The translations under genes were made by a program, and so were the position numbers. 64,000 nt of DNA from Escherichia coli. Lineage in GTDB: Bacteria > Pseudomonadota > Gammaproteobacteria > Enterobacterales > Enterobacteriaceae. Positions within the stretch are counted from its first letter, which is position 1, and each line of letters opens with the position of its first letter. Below, piece after piece: positions 49,360-63,997 of the stretch. The notes under the pieces were generated by a model that did no database searches, was not told where the DNA came from, and was given only the letters and a program-made list of their open reading frames with translations. Location of the stretch: NCBI RefSeq assembly GCF_016026235.1, contig NZ_CP065613.1. The stretch is one strand, 5' to 3'.

Positions 49360-50030
49360 CAGCGCAATTCGAACAGATAGCCCTGGCCGCGAACGGTGGT
49401 AATCACTTCTTGGGGATATTGTGCCTGAATTTTTTTGCGCAGACGTCCCATCAGTACATCAATGGTATGGCTTTCCCGCAGCTCCGCATCCGGATAGAGT
49501 TGGAGCATTAACGAATCTTTGCTGACCACTTTGCCATTATTGCGTATCAACGTTTCCATAATGGTGTATTCGAACGCGGTCAGTTTGATCACTTCGTCAT
49601 TAATAGATAATTCACGGCGAGAGAGATCAACCTGAAACGGGGGTAGCGAAATGACCTGTGAAGCCAGACCGCTATTACGCCGCATTAATGCCTGCATTCG
49701 CGCCATCACCTCTTCAATATGAAATGGTTTAGTCACGTAATCATCAGCACCAGCACTTAATACTTCGACTTTGTCCTGCCAGCTTTCACGGGCGGTTAAT
49801 ACCAGAATCGGCAGTGAAACATCATTGCTACGCCAGCGGCGAATCAGTGACAGACCGTCCTCGTCTGGCAATCCGAGATCGACAATCGCAATATCCGGTA
49901 AATGTTCATTGAGATAATAATCGGCTTCTTTGGCATCTTCTGCATCATCGACCTGATGACCAGCATCCTGAATCTGAACTTTAAGGTGGTGACGTAACAA
50001 CGCATTGTCTTCAACAACCAGTACGCGCAT
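49359..50030 (-). CDS. phoP: Response regulator PhoP (OmpR family)
   Basis: 223-aa [35 protein letters not shown]; its stop overlaps the phoQ start by 1 bp. Confidence 0.95.
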
Positions 50031-50090
50031 TTTTATTTCTCCCTGTCTTAATTATTAAAATAGTGTAACGCGATTATGTGGTTATGGGGG

Positions 50091-50107
50091 TAAACATTAA
50101 ATAAACC
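50091..50107 (-). promoter_or_regulatory. PhoP box (direct repeat) in the phoPQ promoter
   Basis: Minus-strand sequence GGTTTATTTAATGTTTA, matching the (T/G)GTTTA-N5-(T/G)GTTTA PhoP-box form, about 60-80 bp upstream of phoP. Confidence 0.7.
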
Positions 50108-50197
50108 AGCGGGGAGGGGAGGTAAAGTGAAAAAATAAAAAGCGGATAATCTTAATAAGCAGGCCGGACAGCATCGCCATCCGGCACTGATACGAGT

Positions 50198-51571
<1,374 letters not shown>

Positions 51572-52213
51572 TCACAACTCCGGGGTTAAATGAGCAAGAA
51601 TTTGTTTTGCCTGAGTGGTCAGGCGATTACGAGAAAACATCAATTGCAGACGTCCGCCGCCGACCTGGTGCCAGAGCACGGCGGCGCGAATGCCTGCCAG
51701 CAGGGTTGCGCGAACTTTCGCCTGCACTTGTGGGCTTTGCAGTACAGCAGGGGAACCGGTGACCTGAATGCGCGGGCCAAGCGGGCTAATCACATCAACA
51801 TAGATAGCAGCCATCGCGCTCATCAGCGTTTCGGACTGTAAATCGAAGTGTTCGAGCTGGCGTTGCAGGCCGTTGATCCGGTTGCCCAGAGTGTCGAGCG
51901 CACCTTTCGCTGAGGAGAGTTTGCGCTCAAGCACCATCAGACTGAGTGTGTAGCGGGTTAATTCGGCGTTTAAGCCCTGGCGACTGCTGGCATTGAGCAC
52001 GCCGAGCAGGGTTTCCAGCCCGACGCGCAGGTTGGCTTCGCTACCGCCAAAAACCGCCAGCGTCGAGCTGGGGTTCATATCAATAATACTGTTGAGTGAG
52101 ACGTGTAGCGCATCGGCATCACAATGCCCCTGGTGAGCGAGTTGTTGCACCAGGCGTGCCGACTGACAAATACCGGCCAGGGCGAGGGTGATGTCATAGT
52201 AATTCTTTGCCAC
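51572..52213 (-). CDS. hflD: High-frequency lysogenization protein HflD
   Basis: Start set at a GTG ([17 protein letters not shown]) to give about 213 aa. Confidence 0.88.
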
Positions 52214-52248
52214 GTTCACTGCTTCCTTGTTTTAAGTAAAGATAATAA

Positions 52249-53870
<1,622 letters not shown>

Positions 53871-53879
53871 TTTGCATCC

Positions 53880-54533
53880 TTAATCTGTCACTTCTCGCCA
53901 TTCGCCATTAGCAAGATTATCCAAAGAGTAATCACCCATCGCATAGCGAATCAGTCGCAGCGTGGGGAAACCAACATGGGCGGTCATGCGGCGCACCTGG
54001 CGATTACGTCCTTCATATAAGGTGATCTTCAGCCAGCTGGTGGGAATACTTTTGCGTTCACGAATTGGTGGATTCCGCGGCCATAACCACGCAGGTTCGT
54101 CAACCAGCTCCGCGCCGGCGGGCAGGGTAGGGCCATCATTTAAGGTTACGCCATTGCGCAAGGCTTCAAGTGCGTCTTGTGTGGGAATACCTTCCACCTG
54201 CACATAATAGATTTTTCCGGTGCGTTTACCCGGCTGGGTTAAACGCGCCTGCAACGCGCCGTTATTGGTCAGCACCAGTAACCCTTCGCTATCGCGGTCA
54301 AGACGACCTGCTGCATAAACGCCCTGAACCGGGATGAATTCTTTTAATGTTTTGCGTCCGGCTTCATCGGTGAACTGCGGAAGAACATCGTAGGGTTTAT
54401 TGAACAGGATCACACGCGTGGGCTGGTTTTCAGGTTTACGCCTGGTAGAACGTTGCGAGCTGAATCGCTTAACCTGGTGATTTCTAAAAGAAGTTTTTTG
54501 CATGGTATTTTCAGAGATTATGAATTGCCGCAT
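53880..54533 (-). CDS. rluE: 23S rRNA pseudouridine synthase RluE
   Basis: 217-aa RsuA-family ORF ([17 protein letters not shown]). Confidence 0.9.
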
Positions 54534-54705
54534 TATAGCCTAATAACGCGCATCTTTCATGACGGCAAACAATAGGGTAGTATTGACAAGCCAATTACAA
54601 ATCATTAACAAAAAAATTGCTCTAAAGCATCCGTATCGCAGGACGCAAACGCATATGCAACGTGGTGGCAGACGAGCAAACCAGTAGCGCTCGAAGGAGA
54701 GGTGA

Positions 54706-55956
54706 ATGGAAAGTAAAGTAGTTGTTCCGGCACAAGGCAAGAAGATCACCCTGCAAAACGGCAAACTCAACGTTCCTGAAAATCCGATTATCCCTTACAT
54801 TGAAGGTGATGGAATCGGTGTAGATGTAACCCCAGCCATGCTGAAAGTGGTCGATGCTGCAGTCGAGAAAGCCTATAAAGGTGAGCGTAAAATCTCCTGG
54901 ATGGAAATTTACACCGGTGAAAAATCCACACAGGTTTATGGTCAGGACGTCTGGTTGCCTGCTGAAACTCTTGATCTGATTCGTGAATATCGCGTTGCTA
55001 TTAAAGGCCCGCTGACCACTCCGGTTGGTGGCGGTATTCGTTCTCTCAACGTTGCCCTGCGCCAGGAACTGGATCTCTACATCTGCCTGCGTCCGGTACG
55101 TTACTATCAGGGCACCCCAAGCCCGGTTAAACACCCTGAACTGACCGATATGGTTATCTTCCGTGAAAACTCGGAAGACATTTATGCAGGTATCGAATGG
55201 AAAGCTGACTCTGCCGACGCTGAGAAAGTGATTAAATTCCTGCGTGAAGAGATGGGCGTGAAGAAAATTCGCTTCCCGGAACATTGTGGTATCGGTATTA
55301 AGCCGTGTTCAGAAGAAGGCACTAAACGTCTGGTTCGTGCAGCGATCGAATACGCAATTGCTAACGATCGTGACTCTGTGACTCTGGTACACAAAGGCAA
55401 TATCATGAAGTTCACCGAAGGCGCGTTTAAAGACTGGGGCTACCAGCTTGCGCGTGAAGAGTTTGGCGGTGAACCGATCGACGGTGGCCCGTGGCTGAAA
55501 GTCAAAAACCCGAACACCGGCAAAGAGATCGTCATTAAAGACGTGATCGCTGATGCGTTCCTGCAACAGATCCTGCTGCGTCCGGCTGAATATGATGTTA
55601 TCGCCTGTATGAACCTGAACGGTGACTACATTTCTGACGCCCTGGCAGCGCAGGTTGGCGGTATCGGTATCGCCCCTGGCGCAAACATCGGTGACGAATG
55701 CGCCCTGTTTGAAGCTACCCACGGTACTGCGCCGAAATATGCCGGTCAGGACAAAGTTAACCCAGGTTCTATTATTCTCTCTGCTGAGATGATGTTACGC
55801 CACATGGGTTGGACCGAAGCCGCAGACCTGATTGTTAAAGGTATGGAAGGCGCAATCAATGCGAAGACCGTAACCTATGACTTCGAACGTCTGATGGAAG
55901 GCGCTAAACTGCTGAAATGTTCAGAGTTTGGTGATGCGATCATCAAAAATATGTAA
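54706..55956 (+). CDS. icd: Isocitrate dehydrogenase (NADP)
   Basis: 416-aa [43 protein letters not shown]; full length and uninterrupted. Confidence 0.97.
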
Positions 55957-55978
55957 ACACTACATGTGTTAAATATTT

Positions 55979-56010
55979 AAACGGGCGTATAACACGCCCG
56001 TTGTTTTATT
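55979..56010 (+). terminator. Intrinsic terminator after icd
   Basis: Stem aaacgggcg/cgcccgtt with loop tataaca, followed by gttttattt. Confidence 0.7.
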
Positions 56011-56309
56011 TATGTGGATATTATTAATAGCATATCGAGCATATTTATATAAAACCCATTACTTGAGCCCATATGGGCATATTTTTATAATACAACTCTT
56101 ATGCAAACATTTATTTGTTATTTCGCTTTCTCCTGGAGGACACTCTTGACTGCTTTTGAGTAAACTCCATAAATTCTTGTTGAATGGTGCAATGTTATAA
56201 ATAGTTATAGGATATTCTTTATCCTTAAGGATAATACCAGGCTTAACCAGTGTAGGTAATGCTGCCAACTTACTGATTTAGTGTATGATGGTGATTTTAA
56301 GGTGCTTGC

Positions 56310-56585
56310 GTGGCTTCCATTTCCATCAGATGTCCTTCCTGCTCCGCTACTGAAGGCGTGGTGCGTAACGGCAAAAGCACTGCCGGACATCAGCGCTATC
56401 TCTGCTCTCATTGCCGTAAAACATGGCAACTACAGTTCACTTACACCGCCTCTCAGCCCGGTACGCACCAGAAAATCATTGATATGGCCATGAATGGCGT
56501 CGGATGTCGCGCCAGTGCACGCATTATGGGCGTTGGCCTCAACACGGTTTTACGTCACTTAAAAAACTCAGGCCGCAGTCGGTAA
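56310..56585 (+). CDS. insA: IS1 InsA (transposition inhibitor / N-terminal part of the transposase)
   Basis: 91-aa [43 protein letters not shown]... with a zinc-finger Cys cluster; the A6C slippery site TTAAAAAAC lies at 56559-56567. Confidence 0.93.
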
Positions 56586-57007
56586 CCTCGCGCATACAAC
56601 CGGGCAGTGATGTGATTGTCTGCGCTGAAATGGACGAACAGTGGGGCTACGTCGGTGCTAAATCACGTCAGCGCTGGCTGTTTTACGCGTATGACAGGAT
56701 ACGGAGGACGGTTGTGGCGCACGTCTTCGGTGAACGCACTCTGGCCACACTGGAGCGTCTTCTGAGCCTGCTGTCGGCCTTTGAGGTCGTGGTATGGATG
56801 ACGGATGGCTGGCCGCTGTATGAATCACGCCTGAAGGGAAAGCTGCACGTTATCAGCAAGCGTTACACTCAGCGCATTGAGCGACATAATCTGAATCTGA
56901 GACAACATCTGGCAAGGCTGGGACGGAAGTCACTGTCGTTCTCAAAATCGGTGGAGCTGCATGACAAGGTCATCGGGCATTATCTGAACATAAAACACTA
57001 TCAGTAA
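56504..57007 (+). CDS. insB: IS1 InsB reading frame, expressed as the InsAB' transposase by -1 frameshifting
   Basis: 167-aa -1-frame ORF overlapping the insA 3' end and containing the DDE-like catalytic region. Confidence 0.9.
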
Positions 57008-57854
57008 GTTGGAGTCATTACCACCAGTGTAAATATACTTCCAGGAGGAAGAAATATAGTAGATTGATACCAGATAATCATTTTCATATCACCCCATATG
57101 GCTGAAAAAGATATGCCGCATGTAGGTTGAATTACCGTGTCAATTACTACCCACTTCATTTGTTATGTCTTATCCCACGGTATTTAATATAGTTCATTTG
57201 GATGTTCATTTCTTTATTTTGCATATGAGTATATTACCCCTTCAAAAAATAAATTAATTAAAACGATTGCTTATATAAAACAAAATTTAAAGCAAGGAAT
57301 CTCAATGGATGTTAAACAAAATGAGATTTAGTGAAAACAATAAATTATTCACTTCGTTTTAGATTTGTTTAGCTATAATGTTATACATTCAAATGACTGA
57401 CCATCCTGTAATTAAAACATAGCCTTTATGCTACTTTGTGCCAATTTGCTAAACATTATGGTTGCCTTTTTATATAACGATAATAATGAATATAAGCATG
57501 ACATGAGAATAAGGTTTCAATTTTTGAGTTATATAGGAAAGGTTTAACCTGTTCCTGGCTAAAATACATATAACTGGATGATGACTAAACCAAAACACAT
57601 GTGCGTTAAGTATTGAAACGGGCGTATGGCACGCCCGTTGTTTTTATAAATATATTAAACGTTATGAAATAACGTATAGAAAGTCAAGTGATCACATTTC
57701 AAATATCAATTTGATAGTATTGGCCTGGTGATTATTTATGGGTAGCAATAAAAGGACAGTATTTATCATCCATAGGGATAGTCTCTGTACTTTTATTCCC
57801 ATTATGCTAATGCCTTACTGAATTATGAAGCATTTCTTAAGCATCCAACTTTAG

Positions 57855-58259
57855 CTAGATTAATGGTTTATTATTTTCTACATCTTCAATATATAAAAGC
57901 GTATTATCAATGGCGTAGTAACTGCGTTTGTTATGATTAACATCAGTAACCCAACGGAAAACGCCCGCGTCTGCCAGTGTTGAACAGTATTCCCGAAATG
58001 TAGATTTTCCGCAAATATGAAGCAATGCGGCCTCTTTTATTTTAGCAGGGTTCTTGGTCGTACTAACTTTTAACAGGTTCCTGGTTCCTCTTAATAACAA
58101 AACCGTGTCATCGTGAGTAATAATTCTGATGTTATCCGTAGCCAGATAATAAATGTAATGTGCAATACGGTGATGTTTTAATTCTGAATAAAACCAGGAG
58201 AAGTTTTGCTCTTTTCTCACTTGCTCAAACATCTTTTGAAAAACAACGACCTGATCCAT
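57855..58259 (-). CDS. ycgX: DUF1398-family protein YcgX
   Basis: 134-aa ORF MDQVVVFQKMFEQVRKEQNFSWFYSELKHH flanked by AT-rich DNA, upstream of bluR; identity from recalled gene order. Confidence 0.7.
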   Translation of the reverse strand: MDQVVVFQKMFEQVRKEQNFSWFYSELKHHRIAHYIYYLATDNIRIITHDDTVLLLRGTRNLLKVSTTKNPAKIKEAALLHICGKSTFREYCSTLADAGVFRWVTDVNHNKRSYYAIDNTLLYIEDVENNKPLI

Positions 58260-58479
58260 CAGGATAATAACCTCTTGTTAGTTGTGAGACTGCGTAGTGT
58301 GCACGATCGGTTTTACCACTTCAATCTGGTCTGTTCTTTGGCTGTGATATGTACAGAGTGTGATAGAGGGATTACCTGAATTCTCCCGGTGAGCATTTTG
58401 CAACGGACCAGCTCCGGTACAAATGCTGTTGTGGGTTCAGATTATAACATTCTGTCTAAGGGGCAGGATAAAGGTGAAA

Positions 58480-59211
58480 TTAGGGGGCATGAAAGATGAC
58501 TTTATAACCTTGCTCACCCCAGTGTTGTAAAAGTTCATTTTGCCTTCTCGTTGGTGCCATGCCTGTCCAGACAATCAATGTTTGCGTCGGGAACAGTTCT
58601 GGGCGCGGTGATTCAATGGGATCAGCAAGAACAGAAATGTGCCATCCTGACAATGATAAACGCCATGCTTCCAGCCACAATCGTGCTCTCTCTTCAACAT
58701 TCCATGCCATCAGAATGGCTTCTTTACCGGGCTTACGGCGCATTTCGAAAAGCGAGGCTGCTGCGTATTCAATTAGTGCGCCGTCAAACATACTGCTCAT
58801 AATGCGGGAGGTGTTGTGATCAAGCACGAGACGCTGGCGAACAGGAAGGTAAACATGATTAATCAATTGATCTACTGGGTACTCTCGACCCAGTGAAATA
58901 ATTCTCGCGCGTAGTTTGGCAGGATTAGCCATACGAAGAATTGACATCATCTCTTCTTGCAGGCGGCTCCAGTCATCTTCCGTATCCTGGCTGGTGGTTT
59001 CCAGTAATGCTTTAACTTTGCCTACAGGGACGCCATTACTTATCCAACGCTTGATCTCTTCGATGCGTTGTATGTCTTCTTCATCAAAGAGTCGGTGTCC
59101 GCCTTCACTGCGCTGTGGTTTTAACAAACCGTAGCGGCGTTGCCAGGCCCGGAGAGTGACAGGATTAATCCCGCAACGTTCAGCAACATCACCAATGCTG
59201 TAATAAGCCAC
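58480..59211 (-). CDS. bluR: MerR-family transcriptional repressor BluR (YcgE)
   Basis: 243-aa ORF with an N-terminal MerR HTH ([32 protein letters not shown]). Confidence 0.88.
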
Positions 59212-59405
59212 AATTCCTCCTTGCGGTCATAAATCTCCGTCGCCTGTACACGACCCAATAATACTTTGTACAATATACGCTAAAATTGTACAAAGTATAA
59301 ATAAGATTTCAGCTAAATTGGATGAAACATTATTTTTAATGTGGATTAAATTAAAGCATAACGTATTCATTTTCACGATGATTTACTGAAATCATGTGCT
59401 GAAAA

Positions 59406-60617
59406 TTATTTTTTTTCTGGCCACGCAACTGAAGGGATACCATTCAATTTAGCTTTAGCAAACAGATCCCCCTGAAACATCTCAATTCCTGCGGATTCAA
59501 GCCACATCCACTCTTCTGGTGTTGCCACGCCCATAGCAGAGACTTGAATTTCAAGTGATGTACAGCATTTTATGATCGCCTGAATAATTGCCTGCCGTGG
59601 TCCGCTTTTATGAACATTGGTAATCAATTCCTGACTGATTTTAATTCTGTCAGGCTGGAAGCGTGACAGGAGTAACAAACCAGCAAAACCTGCGCCAAAA
59701 TGATCAATTGCTACACTGATACCGGCAGCCTTTAGCGATTTAACCGCTTCGGCAAACTCATCAAACCGAGATATGACTTCACTTTCAGTAAATTCAACGA
59801 TGATTTGTTCAGGCACCAGAGCATTGGCCTTTATTTCATCAAGTAAAAAAGAGACTGCGTCAGGCTCGTTAACCAGGGTCATAGGTAATAGATTGATTGA
59901 AATCATTTTATCACCGAGCTCAAGTGCGTGTGCCATCGCGAATGCAAGCGCCTTACTTTTAAGATCCGCTGTGTAGATTTCCCCGTCTTTACGCTGCCCA
60001 ACCGCTATAGCTGACGGGCTGTCTTCATTTTTTTGCACAATGGCTTCAAAAGCGATTATCCGCCGCGATAAGGGATCAACAATAGGATGAAAGGCAAAGT
60101 GGTCGTTTATAGTTGGTGAAAGGGTACAGGAATCAAGTTCTTTATCAGATCTGTCAGCGATAAAAAGCCAGGAGTCTTCAGCAGGAATCTCGAAATAGGT
60201 TGATTGTTCGGTTGCAAGGACAAAAGTACGAAAAAATTGTAGCGCTCTGTCATCATAAGTTAGCTGAAATTTTGATGTGCCTTTGTCGAATACGGCCTGT
60301 AAAACGTCATCTCGCTCGTGTAGGCGTAAATCAAATAATTCCATTCCCGCTTTGCCAAAACGGCGAGCAGGCGCGTAATCGCACAGCAGCTCAACAATAT
60401 TATAGTGCCGTGGATCCTGGCATATAGCCCGATATATCATTTTAACCTGTTCTTCCGGACCTTCCAGAAGCTGGAAAAAATGAGAACCATTAAACAGTAA
60501 GATCCCTGTTACGTCAGACTGCATGTTCCTGCGATTTGCAATCGAAACCATTTCTTCGATTTTTTTGACAGGTTCGTCGTCACGTATATGGCTACGATAA
60601 ATAAGGGTGGTAAGCAT
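59406..60617 (-). CDS. bluF: Blue-light sensor BluF (YcgF): BLUF domain plus degenerate EAL domain
   Basis: Start set at MLTTLIYRSHIRDD to give 403 aa; BLUF N-terminal domain (VTGILLFNGSHFFQLLEGP) and an EAL-like C-terminus; the track ORF is 57 codons longer. Confidence 0.88.
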   Translation of the reverse strand: MLTTLIYRSHIRDDEPVKKIEEMVSIANRRNMQSDVTGILLFNGSHFFQLLEGPEEQVKMIYRAICQDPRHYNIVELLCDYAPARRFGKAGMELFDLRLHERDDVLQAVFDKGTSKFQLTYDDRALQFFRTFVLATEQSTYFEIPAEDSWLFIADRSDKELDSCTLSPTINDHFAFHPIVDPLSRRIIAFEAIVQKNEDSPSAIAVGQRKDGEIYTADLKSKALAFAMAHALELGDKMISINLLPMTLVNEPDAVSFLLDEIKANALVPEQIIVEFTESEVISRFDEFAEAVKSLKAAGISVAIDHFGAGFAGLLLLSRFQPDRIKISQELITNVHKSGPRQAIIQAIIKCCTSLEIQVSAMGVATPEEWMWLESAGIEMFQGDLFAKAKLNGIPSVAWPEKK

Positions 60618-60930
60618 TAACTGTCCAGGGTAATGGGAGTGGCGAGAGTAAGACGGTAACAGACATATCTTCCGGTGTCTTTCTTTTAATACCAAAACAT
60701 AACTGTTTCTTTGCATTGATAGAAAATGGAAAAAGTTGAACACGAGTTGGCGAAAAATCTTGTATAGTTTGTCAGTTAAATGATGCAATATGTTTTATCA
60801 TAACGTATTGTTTTATATGTATTAGCACTAATTGCAAAAAATTAATTTATCATTCTGTACACATATTTCGTACAAGTTTGCTATTGTTACCTCACTTAAC
60901 ATTGATTAACATTTTTAACAGAGGCGTAGC

Positions 60931-61167
60931 ATGCATCAAAATTCAGTGACTTTAGATTCTGCGGGAGCAATCACTCGTTACTTTGCAAAAGCTAACTTGC
61001 CTACTCAGCAGGAAACTCTCGGGGAAATTGTGACTGAGATTTTGAAAGATGGACGTAATCTGAGTCGAAAGTCGCTTTGTGCCAAACTTCTTTGCCGACT
61101 GGAACAAGCGACAGGGGAAGAGGAACAGAAACATTATAATGCACTAATTGGGTTGCTTTTTGAATAA
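60931..61167 (+). CDS. ycgZ: Small protein YcgZ (connector of the bluR-controlled operon)
   Basis: 78-aa ORF divergent from bluF, first gene of a four-gene small-protein operon. Confidence 0.8.
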   Translation: MHQNSVTLDSAGAITRYFAKANLPTQQETLGEIVTEILKDGRNLSRKSLCAKLLCRLEQATGEEEQKHYNALIGLLFE

Positions 61168-61209
61168 TGCAACAGCCTGATTATTTAACAGGTTAGCTAT
61201 GAAGTCGTT

Positions 61210-61482
61210 ATGAAGACATCTGATAATGAACGTATAAAATATGAAATTACTGGCCAGGCGGTGCTCCAGATACTGCGCATGAAGATAAATTTTTCGGTGC
61301 AGACTCTTATTAAGCAATTACTCGTAATGAAATCGGCTGAGGAAAATGCTTTCCGACGAGATTTAATTGACAGCATAATTCGTGATTTTAGCAACAGTGA
61401 TACAGGAGGGCCAAACCGAAGAACAGCGATAGCTGACAATAAAAGTATGTTCAATGGTAAGAAAATAAACAGAATACATTAA
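61210..61482 (+). CDS. ymgA: Small protein YmgA
   Basis: 90-aa ORF 42 bp after ycgZ. Confidence 0.8.
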   Translation: MKTSDNERIKYEITGQAVLQILRMKINFSVQTLIKQLLVMKSAEENAFRRDLIDSIIRDFSNSDTGGPNRRTAIADNKSMFNGKKINRIH

Positions 61483-61510
61483 AATTTCATAAGTAAGATG
61501 AGAGGTTACC

Positions 61511-61777
61511 ATGCTTGAAGATACTACAATTCATAATGCAATAACTGATAAAGCGTTATCAAGTTACTTTCGCAGTTCGGGTAATTTGTTAGAAGAAGAG
61601 TCAGCAGTGTTAGGGCAGGCTGTGACTAATTTAATGCTTTCAGGCGATAATGTTAATAATAAAAATATTATCTTAAGTCTGATACACTCCCTGGAAACAA
61701 CAAGTGATATTCTCAAAGCTGATGTGATCAGAAAAACACTGGAAATCGTGTTGCGATACACAGCGGATGACATGTAA
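61511..61777 (+). CDS. ariR: Regulator of acid resistance and biofilm AriR (YmgB)
   Basis: 88-aa [34 protein letters not shown]. Confidence 0.8.
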
Positions 61778-61889
61778 CTTTTAATTATTAAGTATAAGTT
61801 TATAGAAAACTCATTCATCTTATTTTTGTCTGTCGCTTTAGACTATACACAGCATAATTTTATTGGGTTAATATTTCTACGAGGCTGAC

Positions 61890-62138
61890 ATGAATAATTC
61901 AATCCCAGAGAGATTTATTTTTCAATGTGCTTTGTTTAAAAATCTCGAGAGGGAGGTGTTCATGACGCATGGGTATGTTGATAGTCATATTATTGATCAG
62001 GCTTTACGCTTGCGTTTAAAAGATGAAACTAGTGTGATTCTTTCTGATCTCTATCTGCAAATCTTGCAGTACATTGAAATGCATAAGACTACACTAACGG
62101 ATATCATTATTAATGACAGGGAATCCGTGCTCTCTTAG
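61890..62138 (+). CDS. ymgC: Small protein YmgC
   Basis: 82-aa ORF, last gene of the ycgZ-ymgA-ariR-ymgC cluster. Confidence 0.75.
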   Translation: MNNSIPERFIFQCALFKNLEREVFMTHGYVDSHIIDQALRLRLKDETSVILSDLYLQILQYIEMHKTTLTDIIINDRESVLS

Positions 62139-62473
62139 AACTTGAGTAAGGTTATAGAATAAACATCAGCTGTATCATCATGCTGGTGCAAAGTGAGCAT
62201 TTCAGGCGTTATGCTTTCTTAATATATCCGCAATATCAGGGGGCAAACAGGAATGGAGAGCGCTCGTTTTCCATTCTTGACGCCTGATATCCCACCTAAA
62301 TTGTTTAATTCTGCCTACATTGTGCTCAATAATTAATAGGTTAGATGAAGATGGAGAAAATTTTATCTTCGGCGTGGATATTTCTTATGCTCTCTACCAT
62401 GCTCTCTGTAGACGCCAGCGCGAGCGAATGAACGTCATTTTCATGTATTAAACCCTTTGTTCGGGACAAGCGA

Positions 62474-63997
62474 ATGCGCAATACACTCATACCCATCCTC
62501 GTTGCGATATGCTTGTTTATTACCGGTGTCGCTATTTTGAACATCCAGCTCTGGTATTCCGCAAAAGCAGAGTACCTGGCGGGAGCAAGATATGCCGCCA
62601 ACAATATCAATCATATACTTGAAGAAGCGTCACAGGCGACTCAAACAGCGGTTAACATTGCCGGGAAGGAATGCGACCTCGAGGAGCAATATCAGCTTGG
62701 CACTGAAGCAGCTCTGAAACCTCACCTGCGCACAATCATCATTCTCAAACAGGGAATAGTCTGGTGTACATCCCTGCCTGGGAATCGGGTCCTGCTGTCT
62801 CGTATTCCTGTTGTCCCGGACAGTAATTTGCTGTTGGCTCCGGCAATCGACACCGTTAATAGATTACCTATTCTGCTCTATCAGAGCCAATTTGCAGATA
62901 CGCGCATTTTGGTTACGATAAGTGATCAGCATATTCGCGGGGCGCTTAATGTACCCTTGAAAGGGGTAAGGTATGTATTACGCGTGGCGGATGACATTAT
63001 TGGACCTACGGGTGATGTGATGACGCTTAATGGACATTATCCCTATGCCGAGAAGGTTCACTCCACAAAATATCATTTCACTATTATCTTTAACCCGCCA
63101 CCACTCTTTAGCTTCTACAGACTTATCGATAAAGGCTTTGGGATTTTGATATTTATTCTGTTAATCGCCTGCGCCGCTGCCTTCCTGCTAGATAGGTATT
63201 TCAATAAAAGCGCAACGCCTGAAGAGATCCTGCGGCGGGCTATAAATAATGGGGAGATCGTCCCTTTTTACCAACCAGTGGTGAATGGTCGGGAAGGGAC
63301 ATTGCGGGGAGTTGAGGTGTTAGCCCGCTGGAAACAACCTCACGGTGGATATATTTCACCCGCGGCATTTATTCCACTTGCTGAAAAATCCGGATTAATC
63401 GTTCCGCTTACGCAAAGCCTGATGAATCAGGTTGCCAGACAGATGAACGCTATCGCGAGTAAATTGCCGGAAGGTTTTCATATTGGAATTAATTTTAGCG
63501 CCTCGCATATTATTTCGCCGACGTTTGTCGACGAGTGCTTAAATTACCGTGACAGTTTTACCCGCCGCGATTTAAACCTCGTTCTGGAAGTTACCGAGCG
63601 TGAGCCATTAAATGTTGATGAAAGTCTGGTTCAGCGGTTGAACATTCTGCATGAAAATGGTTTTGTCATCGCGCTGGATGATTTCGGTACTGGCTACTCA
63701 GGGCTTTCTTATCTGCATGACCTGCATATTGATTATATCAAAATTGATCACAGTTTCGTTGGCCGCGTCAACGCAGACCCAGAATCAACCCGAATTCTGG
63801 ATTGTGTATTGGATATGGCGCGTAAACTTTCGATCAGTATCGTCGCTGAAGGTGTCGAAACGAAAGAACAACTTGATTATCTGAACCAAAATAATATCAC
63901 ATTTCAGCAGGGTTATTATTTCTATAAACCTGTTACATACATCGACCTGGTCAAAATTATCCTTTCTAAACCGAAGGTGAAGGTTGTGGTTGAGTGA
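62474..63997 (+). CDS. pdeG: Cyclic-di-GMP phosphodiesterase PdeG (YcgG): CSS-motif sensor plus EAL domain
   Basis: 507-aa ORF with an N-terminal transmembrane helix, periplasmic Cys-containing sensor domain, second transmembrane helix and a C-terminal EAL domain (EVLARW...DDFGTGYS). Confidence 0.88.
   Translation: MRNTLIPILVAICLFITGVAILNIQLWYSAKAEYLAGARYAANNINHILEEASQATQTAVNIAGKECDLEEQYQLGTEAALKPHLRTIIILKQGIVWCTSLPGNRVLLSRIPVVPDSNLLLAPAIDTVNRLPILLYQSQFADTRILVTISDQHIRGALNVPLKGVRYVLRVADDIIGPTGDVMTLNGHYPYAEKVHSTKYHFTIIFNPPPLFSFYRLIDKGFGILIFILLIACAAAFLLDRYFNKSATPEEILRRAINNGEIVPFYQPVVNGREGTLRGVEVLARWKQPHGGYISPAAFIPLAEKSGLIVPLTQSLMNQVARQMNAIASKLPEGFHIGINFSASHIISPTFVDECLNYRDSFTRRDLNLVLEVTEREPLNVDESLVQRLNILHENGFVIALDDFGTGYSGLSYLHDLHIDYIKIDHSFVGRVNADPESTRILDCVLDMARKLSISIVAEGVETKEQLDYLNQNNITFQQGYYFYKPVTYIDLVKIILSKPKVKVVVE

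What the first reader, a model, noticed from the sequence alone, without database searches (positions are those of the whole stretch)
55957..56260. icd is intact and abuts iraM directly, with no e14-type prophage at the icd 3' end
In E. coli K-12 the defective prophage e14 (about 15 kb) is integrated into the 3' end of icd, leaving a displaced icd fragment before iraM (established knowledge). Here the icd stop at 55956 is followed by a terminator hairpin and, about 100 bp later, the iraM 3' end. That is the unoccupied attachment-site configuration, so this genome lacks e14 and the icd 3' end should be the ancestral version.
Basis: partly seen in the sequence, partly recalled or inferred. Interest (0 to 1): 0.45.

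Follow-up and report, generated by a model that had tools for sequence, protein, structure and literature searches.

The report
Empty icd phage-attachment site, IS1-broken iraM
The isocitrate dehydrogenase gene here is whole and has no e14 or phage-21 prophage in its tail, which is the usual state in E. coli; the neighbouring iraM gene is cut in two by an IS1 element, and whether the gene's tail is "ancestral" cannot be decided.

Summary
The iraM stop codon lies 102 bp downstream, and the window has no e14 or phage-21 DNA or protein homologues. This is ordinary. Only 503 of 5,426 complete E. coli genomes match e14 lit-intE, and 1,679 carry a phage-21-type integrase.

Two corrections are needed.

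1. iraM is not intact. A full 768-bp IS1 (56255-57022, 9-bp target duplication ACCAGTGTA) splits it after nucleotide 137. A 99.97%-identical genome, FDAARGOS_943, has the empty site.

2. "Ancestral 3' end" is not demonstrable. The last 165 nt differ at 12 positions from K-12's displaced native copy (icdC) and at 13 from the e14 copy. They differ at only 2-7 positions from two kinds of copy: phage-21-supplied copies (IAI39, ECOR38) and native or displaced copies (LF82, ES5, IAI39). It is clearly not e14-derived. Resident E. coli alleles and phage-21-borne alleles form one pool.

Side finding: iraM-ymgK lies between two copies of the icd terminator (55960-56007 and 57597-57647). About 27% of E. 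coli genomes lack iraM, and two fetched loci show icd or its displaced 3' fragment joined directly to ymgL-ycgX. So the icd-iraM adjacency probably results from an older insertion.

The parts
54706..55956 (+). icd (NADP isocitrate dehydrogenase), intact, 416 aa. The protein is identical to that of FDAARGOS_943. It differs from the widespread WP_000444487.1 only by L257P, and from K-12 Icd by L257P, D398E and E414K.
55792..55802 (+). Position of the 11-bp common core of the e14 attachment site, the left edge of phage/host homology. Here it reads ATGTTACGCCA, against ATGCTGCGCCA in both K-12 copies (two synonymous changes, at 55795 and 55797). Both ends of the IAI39 prophage carry the same TTA variant.
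   Evidence: K-12 attL and attR are identical over 55792-55802 equivalents and first differ at 55803. The e14 feature starts at this base.
55792..56009 (+). 218-bp segment that e14 and phage-21-type elements carry as a replacement for the icd tail: 165 nt of coding sequence plus 53 nt of 3' UTR and terminator. Only one copy is present here, so the site is unoccupied.
   Evidence: Phage matches start at 55792/55798 and end at 56009.
55980..56012 (+). Intrinsic terminator of icd: stem-loop 55980-56002 followed by a T-rich tail.
56059..56254 (-). iraM 3' fragment. It ends in a copy of the 9-bp target duplication (56246-56254).
56255..57022 (+). IS1, 768 bp, with terminal inverted repeats GGTAATG...CATTACC. 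insA is at 56310-56585 and insB at 56504-57007. It is flanked by the 9-bp direct repeat ACCAGTGTA (56246-56254 and 57023-57031). Copies 100% identical to it occur in many E. coli genomes.
   Evidence: The empty site in FDAARGOS_943 shows a 9-bp overlap of the two alignments.
57023..57159 (-). iraM 5' fragment of 137 nt. As it stands it reads into IS1 and stops after 52 codons. Removing IS1 and one repeat copy restores a 107-aa IraM identical to that of FDAARGOS_943.
57597..57647 (+). Second, orphan copy of the icd 3' UTR/terminator, about 88% identical to 55960-56007. Together with the first copy it brackets iraM-ymgK.
   Evidence: It is conserved in K-12, IAI39, NCTC10444, ES5 and FDAARGOS_943. 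No icd-like sequence lies upstream of it.

Best explanation
This is an ordinary, unoccupied chromosomal attachment site (attB) for the e14 and phage-21 family of integrases, located in the last 165 nt of icd.

The gene keeps its own resident 3' end and terminator and runs straight into the AT-rich iraM-ymgK-ymgL-ycgX segment. The resident 3' end belongs to a common E. coli allele class whose protein ends ...[19 protein letters not shown]. It is neither the K-12 icdC class nor the e14 class.

That same class is carried next to attP by phage-21-type phages. The likely reason is that phage and host copies swap whenever recombination happens inside the 218-bp homology rather than at the core. This swapping is inferred, not shown.

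The only strain-specific event is a recent IS1 transposition into iraM. It truncates the anti-adaptor IraM after 45 native codons (7 IS1-encoded codons follow before a stop) and should abolish IraM-dependent stabilisation of RpoS. That loss of function is inferred from the truncation.
For: - **Anatomy:**
- **No prophage DNA or proteins in the window:**
- **Downstream flank:** it equals the K-12 icdC-iraM spacer, whereas the phage-21 and e14 sequences diverge after 56009.
- **Empty-site comparator:** FDAARGOS_943 is 99.97% identical on both sides with intact iraM, and the two alignments overlap by the 9-bp duplication.
- **Allele distances over the coding tail (e14):** IAI39 attL, identical to the ECOR38 copy, 2; LF82 attR 4; ES5 4; IAI39 attR 6; Z1323CEC0015 7; ev017 7; K-12 icdC 12; e14 13.
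- **History tied to the chromosomal flanks:** near-identity with NCTC10444 runs from 55717 to 58334, well beyond both ends of the phage homology. There is no discontinuity against ES5.
- **Outgroups:** E. whittamii and Escherichia sp. E1V33 have no phage-21- or e14-like sequence after the terminator. Both encode K414 and lie nearer the window allele (9 and 6 of 165) than K-12 icdC (12 and 12).
- **Frequency:** e14 lit-intE matches 503 of 5,426 genomes and a phage-21-type int 1,679 of 5,426.
- **IS1:** identical copies occur in many genomes.
Against: - The closest allele outside the window's own haplotype family is a phage-supplied one: the attL copy in IAI39 and ECOR38, 2 coding differences and 4 of 218.
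- The tail is 7.3% from K-12 icdC, against 2.8% for the rest of icd. A past phage-21-type replacement is therefore not excluded.
- The left end of the NCTC10444-shared block (between 55717 and 55957) is compatible with a breakpoint at the att core.
- Only the 64-kb window could be searched for e14. The rest of the genome is unseen.
Confidence: 0.85

Rival explanations
1. The icd tail is a footprint of a lost phage-21-type prophage. An ancestor was lysogenic, and the prophage was deleted by homologous recombination near the right end of the duplicated 218-bp segment, or the tail was converted from it. That left the phage-supplied 3' end joined to the native iraM flank.
For: The window allele is 2 of 164 coding nt and 4 of 218 nt from the attL copy of the IAI39 prophage, which is identical to GenBank AF017626 (the ECOR38 prophage-21 record). 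Two of those 4 differences (55957 and 55978) lie after the stop codon, and 55957 is private to the window and FDAARGOS_943 among the copies compared. Divergence from K-12 icdC jumps to 7.3% in the tail. Phage-21-type integrases are in 31% of E. coli genomes, so exposure is frequent.
Against: Native or displaced copies are almost as close (LF82 attR 4, ES5 4, IAI39 attR 6), so 2 against 4 differences does not discriminate. The shared block with NCTC10444 extends about 2.3 kb past the phage homology and at least 76 bp upstream of the core. The apparently unoccupied outgroups carry the same allele class. Free phages ev017 and 21 are more distant (7 coding differences for ev017; 11 and 18 of 218 nt).
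Confidence: 0.12
2. The tail is the strictly ancestral E. coli sequence, and all other classes, including K-12 icdC, are later phage-derived replacements.
For: E. whittamii and Escherichia sp. E1V33 are closer to the window class than to K-12 icdC, and both have K414. LF82 (its attR copy), IAI39 (its attR copy) and ES5 fall in the same cloud.
Against: The K-12 icdC class is itself a major class: at least 99% identity in 1,421 records, many of them unoccupied. Most other outgroup representatives found (E. albertii, several Citrobacter) are occupied by phage-21- or e14-like elements, so their tails are uninformative. Alleles are mosaic. The window has private changes at 55957 and 55978 and the TTA core variant.
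Confidence: 0.3
3. The icd-iraM junction or the IS1 is an assembly artefact, that is, a chimeric contig or a collapsed repeat.
For: IS1 is a multicopy repeat, with a median of 11 places per genome, and multicopy repeats often cause misassemblies.
Against: The IS1 is a precise 768-bp element with a perfect 9-bp target duplication. Its removal restores the iraM ORF exactly. Both flanks are collinear with FDAARGOS_943 and K-12.
Confidence: 0.02

Closest known systems
E. coli K-12 icd / e14 / icdC / iraM locus (Hill, Gray and Brody 1989, recalled from memory; RefSeq NC_000913 annotation)
   Same: The gene order rluE-icd ... iraM-ymgK-ymgL-ycgX-bluR-bluF is the same. The att position is the same, 165 nt before the icd stop. 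The window's post-stop spacer matches the K-12 icdC-iraM spacer.
   Different: There is no 15.2-kb e14 and only a single icd tail. The tail differs from icdC at 12 of 165 nt and from the e14 copy at 13 of 165. The core reads TTA instead of CTG. iraM is interrupted by IS1.
Phage 21 and phage-21-type lambdoid prophages integrated in icd (phage 21 OL657228; ev017; the ECOR38 record AF017626; the IAI39 prophage)
   Same: These elements carry the same 218-bp icd tail and terminator next to attP, int and xis. The IAI39/ECOR38 copy is 98.2% identical to the window segment and shares K414.
   Different: The window has no phage DNA after 56009 and no integrase. Free phages 21 and ev017 differ at 18 and 11 of 218 nt.
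IS1 (768-bp insertion sequence, insA/insB, 9-bp target duplication)
   Same: Length, inverted repeats, both ORFs and a 9-bp duplication all match. It is 100% identical to copies in many E. coli genomes.
   Different: Nothing unusual. This particular insertion in iraM was not found in any of 5,426 complete E. coli genomes: the best full-length matches are about 95% and are joined from separate pieces.
IraM / IraL anti-adaptor genes (Hryckowian et al. 2014, PMC4045071)
   Same: The reconstructed 107-aa protein is an IraM homologue of the K-12 protein. That paper notes that CFT073 lacks iraM and that iraL lies on a potB island.
   Different: The paper places K-12 iraM 'on the e14 prophage'. Here, and in FDAARGOS_943, NCTC10444 and ES5, iraM is present without e14. 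It lies outside the annotated e14 and is bracketed by two copies of the icd terminator.

Membership tests
Unoccupied attB of e14/phage-21-type integrases in icd | Only one copy of the about 165-nt icd tail at the locus | tested here: met
   Self-search of the window finds no second copy of the coding tail. FDAARGOS_943 has one place for the 218-bp segment.
Unoccupied attB of e14/phage-21-type integrases in icd | No integrase, excisionase or other prophage genes between icd and the chromosomal flank | tested here: met
   blastn against the K-12 e14 region. tblastn with 13 e14 proteins and the phage-21 Int gives no hits.
Unoccupied attB of e14/phage-21-type integrases in icd | Sequence after the terminator continues as the chromosomal flank that follows the displaced copy in lysogens | tested here: met
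   56010-56254 aligns with the K-12 icdC-iraM and IAI39 attR flanks (12 and 13 differences in 245). It is identical to NCTC10444 and FDAARGOS_943. Phage sequences diverge at 56010.
Unoccupied attB of e14/phage-21-type integrases in icd | Core sequence identical to the core used by the integrase | tested here: inconclusive
   The window core is ATGTTACGCCA against ATGCTGCGCCA in K-12, phage 21 and e14. The TTA variant flanks the resident IAI39 prophage on both sides, so it is compatible with occupation. Integration efficiency cannot be tested here.
e14-supplied icd 3' end | e14-specific substitutions (D398; nucleotides at 55828, 55830, 55866, 55887, 55899) and the e14-type 3' UTR | tested here: not met
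   13 of 165 coding and 30 of 218 total differences. The window has E398, not D398, and its 3' UTR is of the chromosomal/phage-21 type.
K-12-type native icd 3' end (icdC class) | Near-identity to icdC, including E410 and E414 | tested here: not met
   12 of 165 coding and 16 of 218 differences. The window has D410 and K414.
Phage-21-type replacement icd 3' end | Closer to attL (phage-supplied) copies than to attR or unoccupied (resident) copies | tested here: inconclusive
   2 coding differences from IAI39/ECOR38 attL, against 4, 4, 6 and 7 from LF82 attR, ES5, IAI39 attR and Z1323CEC0015. There are too few sites to separate them.
IS1 insertion | 768 bp, terminal inverted repeats, insA and insB, 9-bp target-site duplication, empty site in a relative | tested here: met
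Rho-independent terminator | G+C-rich hairpin followed by a T run, more stable than shuffled sequence | tested here: met
   Termination activity itself was not tested.

The most novel reading that the evidence does not exclude
The 'unoccupied' icd-iraM arrangement is itself a fossil of an older integration. On this reading, iraM-ymgK (about 0.8 kb without the IS1, 32% G+C) was inserted into the icd 3' UTR/terminator and left the roughly 48-bp direct repeats at 55960-56007 and 57597-57647. The iraM-less arrangement icd-ymgL-ycgX, seen in Z1323CEC0015 and in the B2 strain LF82, would then be the true empty site. The iraM segment is not detected in about 27% of genomes. The anti-adaptor IraM would be cargo of a decayed element that targeted the same hotspot as e14 and phage 21, rather than part of e14 or of the core chromosome.
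Probability: 0.5. Interest if true: 0.3.

Novelty: already known. Interest (0 to 1): 0.12.

Why it matters
- **Limited significance.** It shows that K-12 is the exception: most E. coli have no element in icd.
- **The K-12 rule of thumb does not generalise.** The pair 'e14-supplied versus native (icdC)' cannot classify icd tails in other strains. The 218-bp tail exists in several classes up to about 7-9% apart (about 14% if the e14-supplied copy is counted), and these are shared between chromosomes and phage-21-type phages. icd is an MLST locus, so mosaicism around this site is relevant to typing.
- **The IS1 hit in iraM has a testable consequence.** It predicts loss of the PhoPQ/low-Mg2+ route to RpoS stabilisation in this strain.
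- **The terminator repeats clarify where iraM belongs.** It lies outside e14 and looks like a separate, older insertion.

Tried and rejected
- **The 1997 papers were not available.** I tried to read the J Bacteriol papers on icd evolution and on phage-21/e14 integration specificity by PubMed and PMC id, and they are not held. Statements about them are from memory and are not used as evidence.
- **The 'lost phage-21 prophage' reading was downgraded.** I first read the 98.2% match to the ECOR38 prophage-21 record as evidence for a phage-derived tail. Displaced native copies (LF82 and IAI39 attR) and unoccupied copies (ES5, Z1323CEC0015) then proved nearly as close, and the block shared with NCTC10444 ran far beyond the phage homology.
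- **Outgroup polarisation was only partly informative.** One scan of species-representative genomes showed that E. albertii, an E. coli representative and several Citrobacter have phage-21- or e14-like sequence immediately downstream of the icd terminator and are therefore probably occupied. Only E. whittamii and Escherichia sp. E1V33 looked unoccupied.
- **No decayed icd fragment was found at the second terminator.** The best local alignment of the sequence upstream of the second copy against the icd coding tail scores below shuffled controls, so the repeat is limited to about 48 bp.
- **Rfam gave nothing.** A scan of 55700-58500 found no match near a gathering score.
- **No IS1-in-iraM allele was found elsewhere.** No genome has the same join; full-length matches are about 95% and pieced together.

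Full report
**1. What is there**

icd occupies 54706-55956 on the plus strand as an uninterrupted 416-codon ORF ending in TAA.

A terminator follows. It has a 9-bp stem with 6 G-C pairs at 55980-56002 and the tail GTTTTATTTA. The RNA fold is -21.5 kcal/mol, z = -4.6 against dinucleotide shuffles.

The minus-strand iraM stop codon is at 56059-56061, 102 bp after the icd stop.

**2. iraM is broken**

A 768-bp IS1 lies at 56255-57022. It has the usual terminal inverted repeats, insA (56310-56585) and insB (56504-57007), and a perfect 9-bp direct repeat ACCAGTGTA on each side (56246-56254 and 57023-57031).

It splits iraM after nucleotide 137. The 5' fragment (57159-57023) reads into IS1 and stops after 52 codons. 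Deleting IS1 and one repeat copy restores a 107-aa IraM.

E. coli FDAARGOS_943 matches the window at 99.97% on both sides: 49699-56254 and 57023-63031. Its two alignments overlap by exactly the 9-bp duplication, and it has intact iraM, so it shows the empty site.

This IS1 sequence is 100% identical to copies in many E. coli genomes. No complete E. coli genome has the same insertion.

**3. No prophage**

- blastn of the K-12 region rluE-icd-e14-icdC-iraM-bluF against the window hits only the chromosomal flanks.
- tblastn with 13 e14 proteins and the phage-21 integrase finds nothing.
- The coding part of the icd tail occurs once in the window.
- Past the terminator (56010 onward) the window follows the K-12 icdC-iraM spacer. 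The e14 and phage-21-type sequences diverge at that point.

This is the unoccupied configuration, and it is common.
- e14 lit-intE matches 503 of 5,426 complete E. coli genomes. It is at least 99% identical in 283 records; the eight listed were all laboratory strains, mostly K-12 derivatives.
- A phage-21-type int is present in 1,679 of 5,426.

**4. Is the 3' end 'ancestral'?**

Over the last 165 nt the window differs at 12 positions from K-12 icdC (the displaced native copy) and at 13 from the e14-supplied copy. Those two copies differ from each other at 12.

At the protein level the window has:
- E398, as in icdC;
- D410, as in the e14 copy;
- K414, which neither K-12 copy has.

The e14 class can be excluded firmly: 30 of 218 nt differ, and the 3' UTR is of a different type.

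A phage search then found that GenBank AF017626 matches 55792-56009 at 98.2%. That record is the icd tail plus integrase of a phage-21 prophage in ECOR38. The match starts exactly at the att boundary and ends exactly where phage-specific DNA begins. The icd-attached (attL) copy of the phage-21-type prophage in IAI39 is identical to it. Taken alone, this suggests a phage-derived tail.

Resident copies are almost as close, however. Coding differences from the window (e14):

| Copy | Kind | Differences |
|---|---|---|
| IAI39 attL (= ECOR38) | phage-supplied | 2 |
| LF82 attR | displaced native | 4 |
| ES5 | unoccupied | 4 |
| IAI39 attR | displaced native | 6 |
| Z1323CEC0015 | unoccupied | 7 |
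| ev017 | free phage | 7 |
| K-12 icdC | displaced native | 12 |
| e14 | phage-supplied | 13 |

The common ICDH protein WP_000444487.1, found in NCTC10444, ES5, IAI39 and Z1323CEC0015, has K414. It differs from the window protein only by L257P.

*Flank evidence.* Against NCTC10444 the window has 30 mismatches in icd between 54855 and 55716. It then has only 2 (55957 and 57666) up to 58334, after which mismatches are dense again. This shared block starts at least 76 bp upstream of the att core and runs about 2.3 kb past the end of the phage homology. Against ES5 there is no discontinuity at all. The history of the tail is therefore tied to the chromosomal flanks.

*Outgroups.* Many species representatives, including E. 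albertii and several Citrobacter, have phage-21- or e14-like sequence immediately downstream of the icd terminator and are therefore probably occupied. E. whittamii and Escherichia sp. E1V33 have neither type after the terminator; for E1V33 about 2.1 kb of downstream sequence was available (a YebC-family gene and ycgN follow icd), for E. whittamii only about 0.7 kb. Both encode K414. They lie closer to the window class (9 and 6 of 165) than to K-12 icdC (12 and 12).

*Population.* The window class (at least 95% identity) is the best copy in 1,478 records, and the K-12 icdC class (at least 99%) in 1,421.

My reading is that the tail is the resident copy of a common allele class. Resident and phage-21-borne alleles form one exchanging pool. 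'Ancestral' can be neither affirmed nor denied from these data. I put a lost-phage-21-prophage footprint at about 0.12.

**5. Mechanism of exchange (inferred, not shown)**

In K-12 the two copies are identical only over 11 bp (55792-55802 equivalents), so Int-mediated crossover there moves the whole 218-bp tail with the phage. A RecA-type crossover or gene conversion anywhere further right in the 218-bp repeat would leave the phage allele in the chromosome and send the host allele off with the phage.

That would explain three observations:
- mosaic alleles;
- the shared pool of alleles;
- the high divergence between classes, up to 19 of 218 between two 'native' copies, K-12 icdC and IAI39 attR.

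**6. Side finding bearing on 'icd abuts iraM'**

A second, orphan copy of the icd 3' UTR/terminator lies at 57597-57647. It is about 88% identical to 55960-56007 (E = 1e-9 within the window) and is conserved in K-12, IAI39, NCTC10444, ES5 and FDAARGOS_943. iraM and ymgK sit between the two copies in a 32% G+C stretch.

I built an artificial junction joining the first terminator to the sequence after the second copy. It matches real genomes as one uninterrupted piece:
- Z1323CEC0015 has icd-ymgL-ycgX with no iraM.
- LF82 has its displaced icd fragment directly next to ymgL-ycgX.

The iraM segment is detectable in 3,945 of 5,426 genomes.

No icd coding similarity precedes the second copy. This looks like the scar of an older, separate insertion at the same hotspot, or alternatively a deletion between the repeats. 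It also corrects the statement that K-12 iraM is 'on the e14 prophage' (PMC4045071). iraM lies outside the annotated e14 and is present here without e14.

**7. Verdict**

The feature is ordinary and already known in kind, so interest is low.

Noticed in passing
window 56255-57022 (target repeats at 56246-56254 and 57023-57031): A full-length IS1 with a 9-bp target duplication splits iraM after nt 137. The near-identical FDAARGOS_943 has the empty site. No complete E. coli genome shares this insertion.
   Followed up: yes
window 57597-57647 compared with 55960-56007: An orphan second copy of the icd 3' UTR/terminator (about 88% identity) lies between ymgK and ymgL, so iraM-ymgK is bracketed by direct repeats. 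iraM-less junctions (icd or icd' directly next to ymgL-ycgX) exist in Z1323CEC0015 and LF82. The iraM segment was not detected in about 27% of complete E. coli genomes.
   Followed up: partly
window 55449-55557: Eight substitutions fall within 109 bp of icd. They are private to the window and FDAARGOS_943 relative to both ES5 and NCTC10444, and include the non-conservative L257P (55475). This looks like a short imported patch.
   Followed up: partly
window 55795 and 55797: The 11-bp att core reads ATGTTACGCCA instead of ATGCTGCGCCA (Leu CTG to TTA). Both ends of the IAI39 prophage-21-type element carry the same variant. Any effect on integration is unknown.
   Followed up: partly
window 55717-58334: This block is nearly identical to NCTC10444 (2 mismatches) although the flanks differ by 1-3.5%. 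Between 55792 and about 58000 the window is about 5% from K-12 and IAI39, against 1-3% elsewhere. G+C is 32-33% from 55957 to 58300.
   Followed up: partly
window about 43100 (potC/potB junction); L059 6600-49900: FDAARGOS_943 carries a lambdoid prophage of at least 43 kb, with IS66, ISSso6 and IS21 insertions, immediately after potB. The window has potB and potC adjacent, so it lacks that prophage. Otherwise the two genomes are 99.97% identical around icd.
   Followed up: no
loci L024, L034, L037, L051, L056 (Kluyvera, Erwinia, Buttiauxella): Extra icd 3' fragments begin at the same position (icd nt 1087-1093) in other Enterobacterales genera. This suggests the same att site in icd is used across the order.
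   Followed up: no
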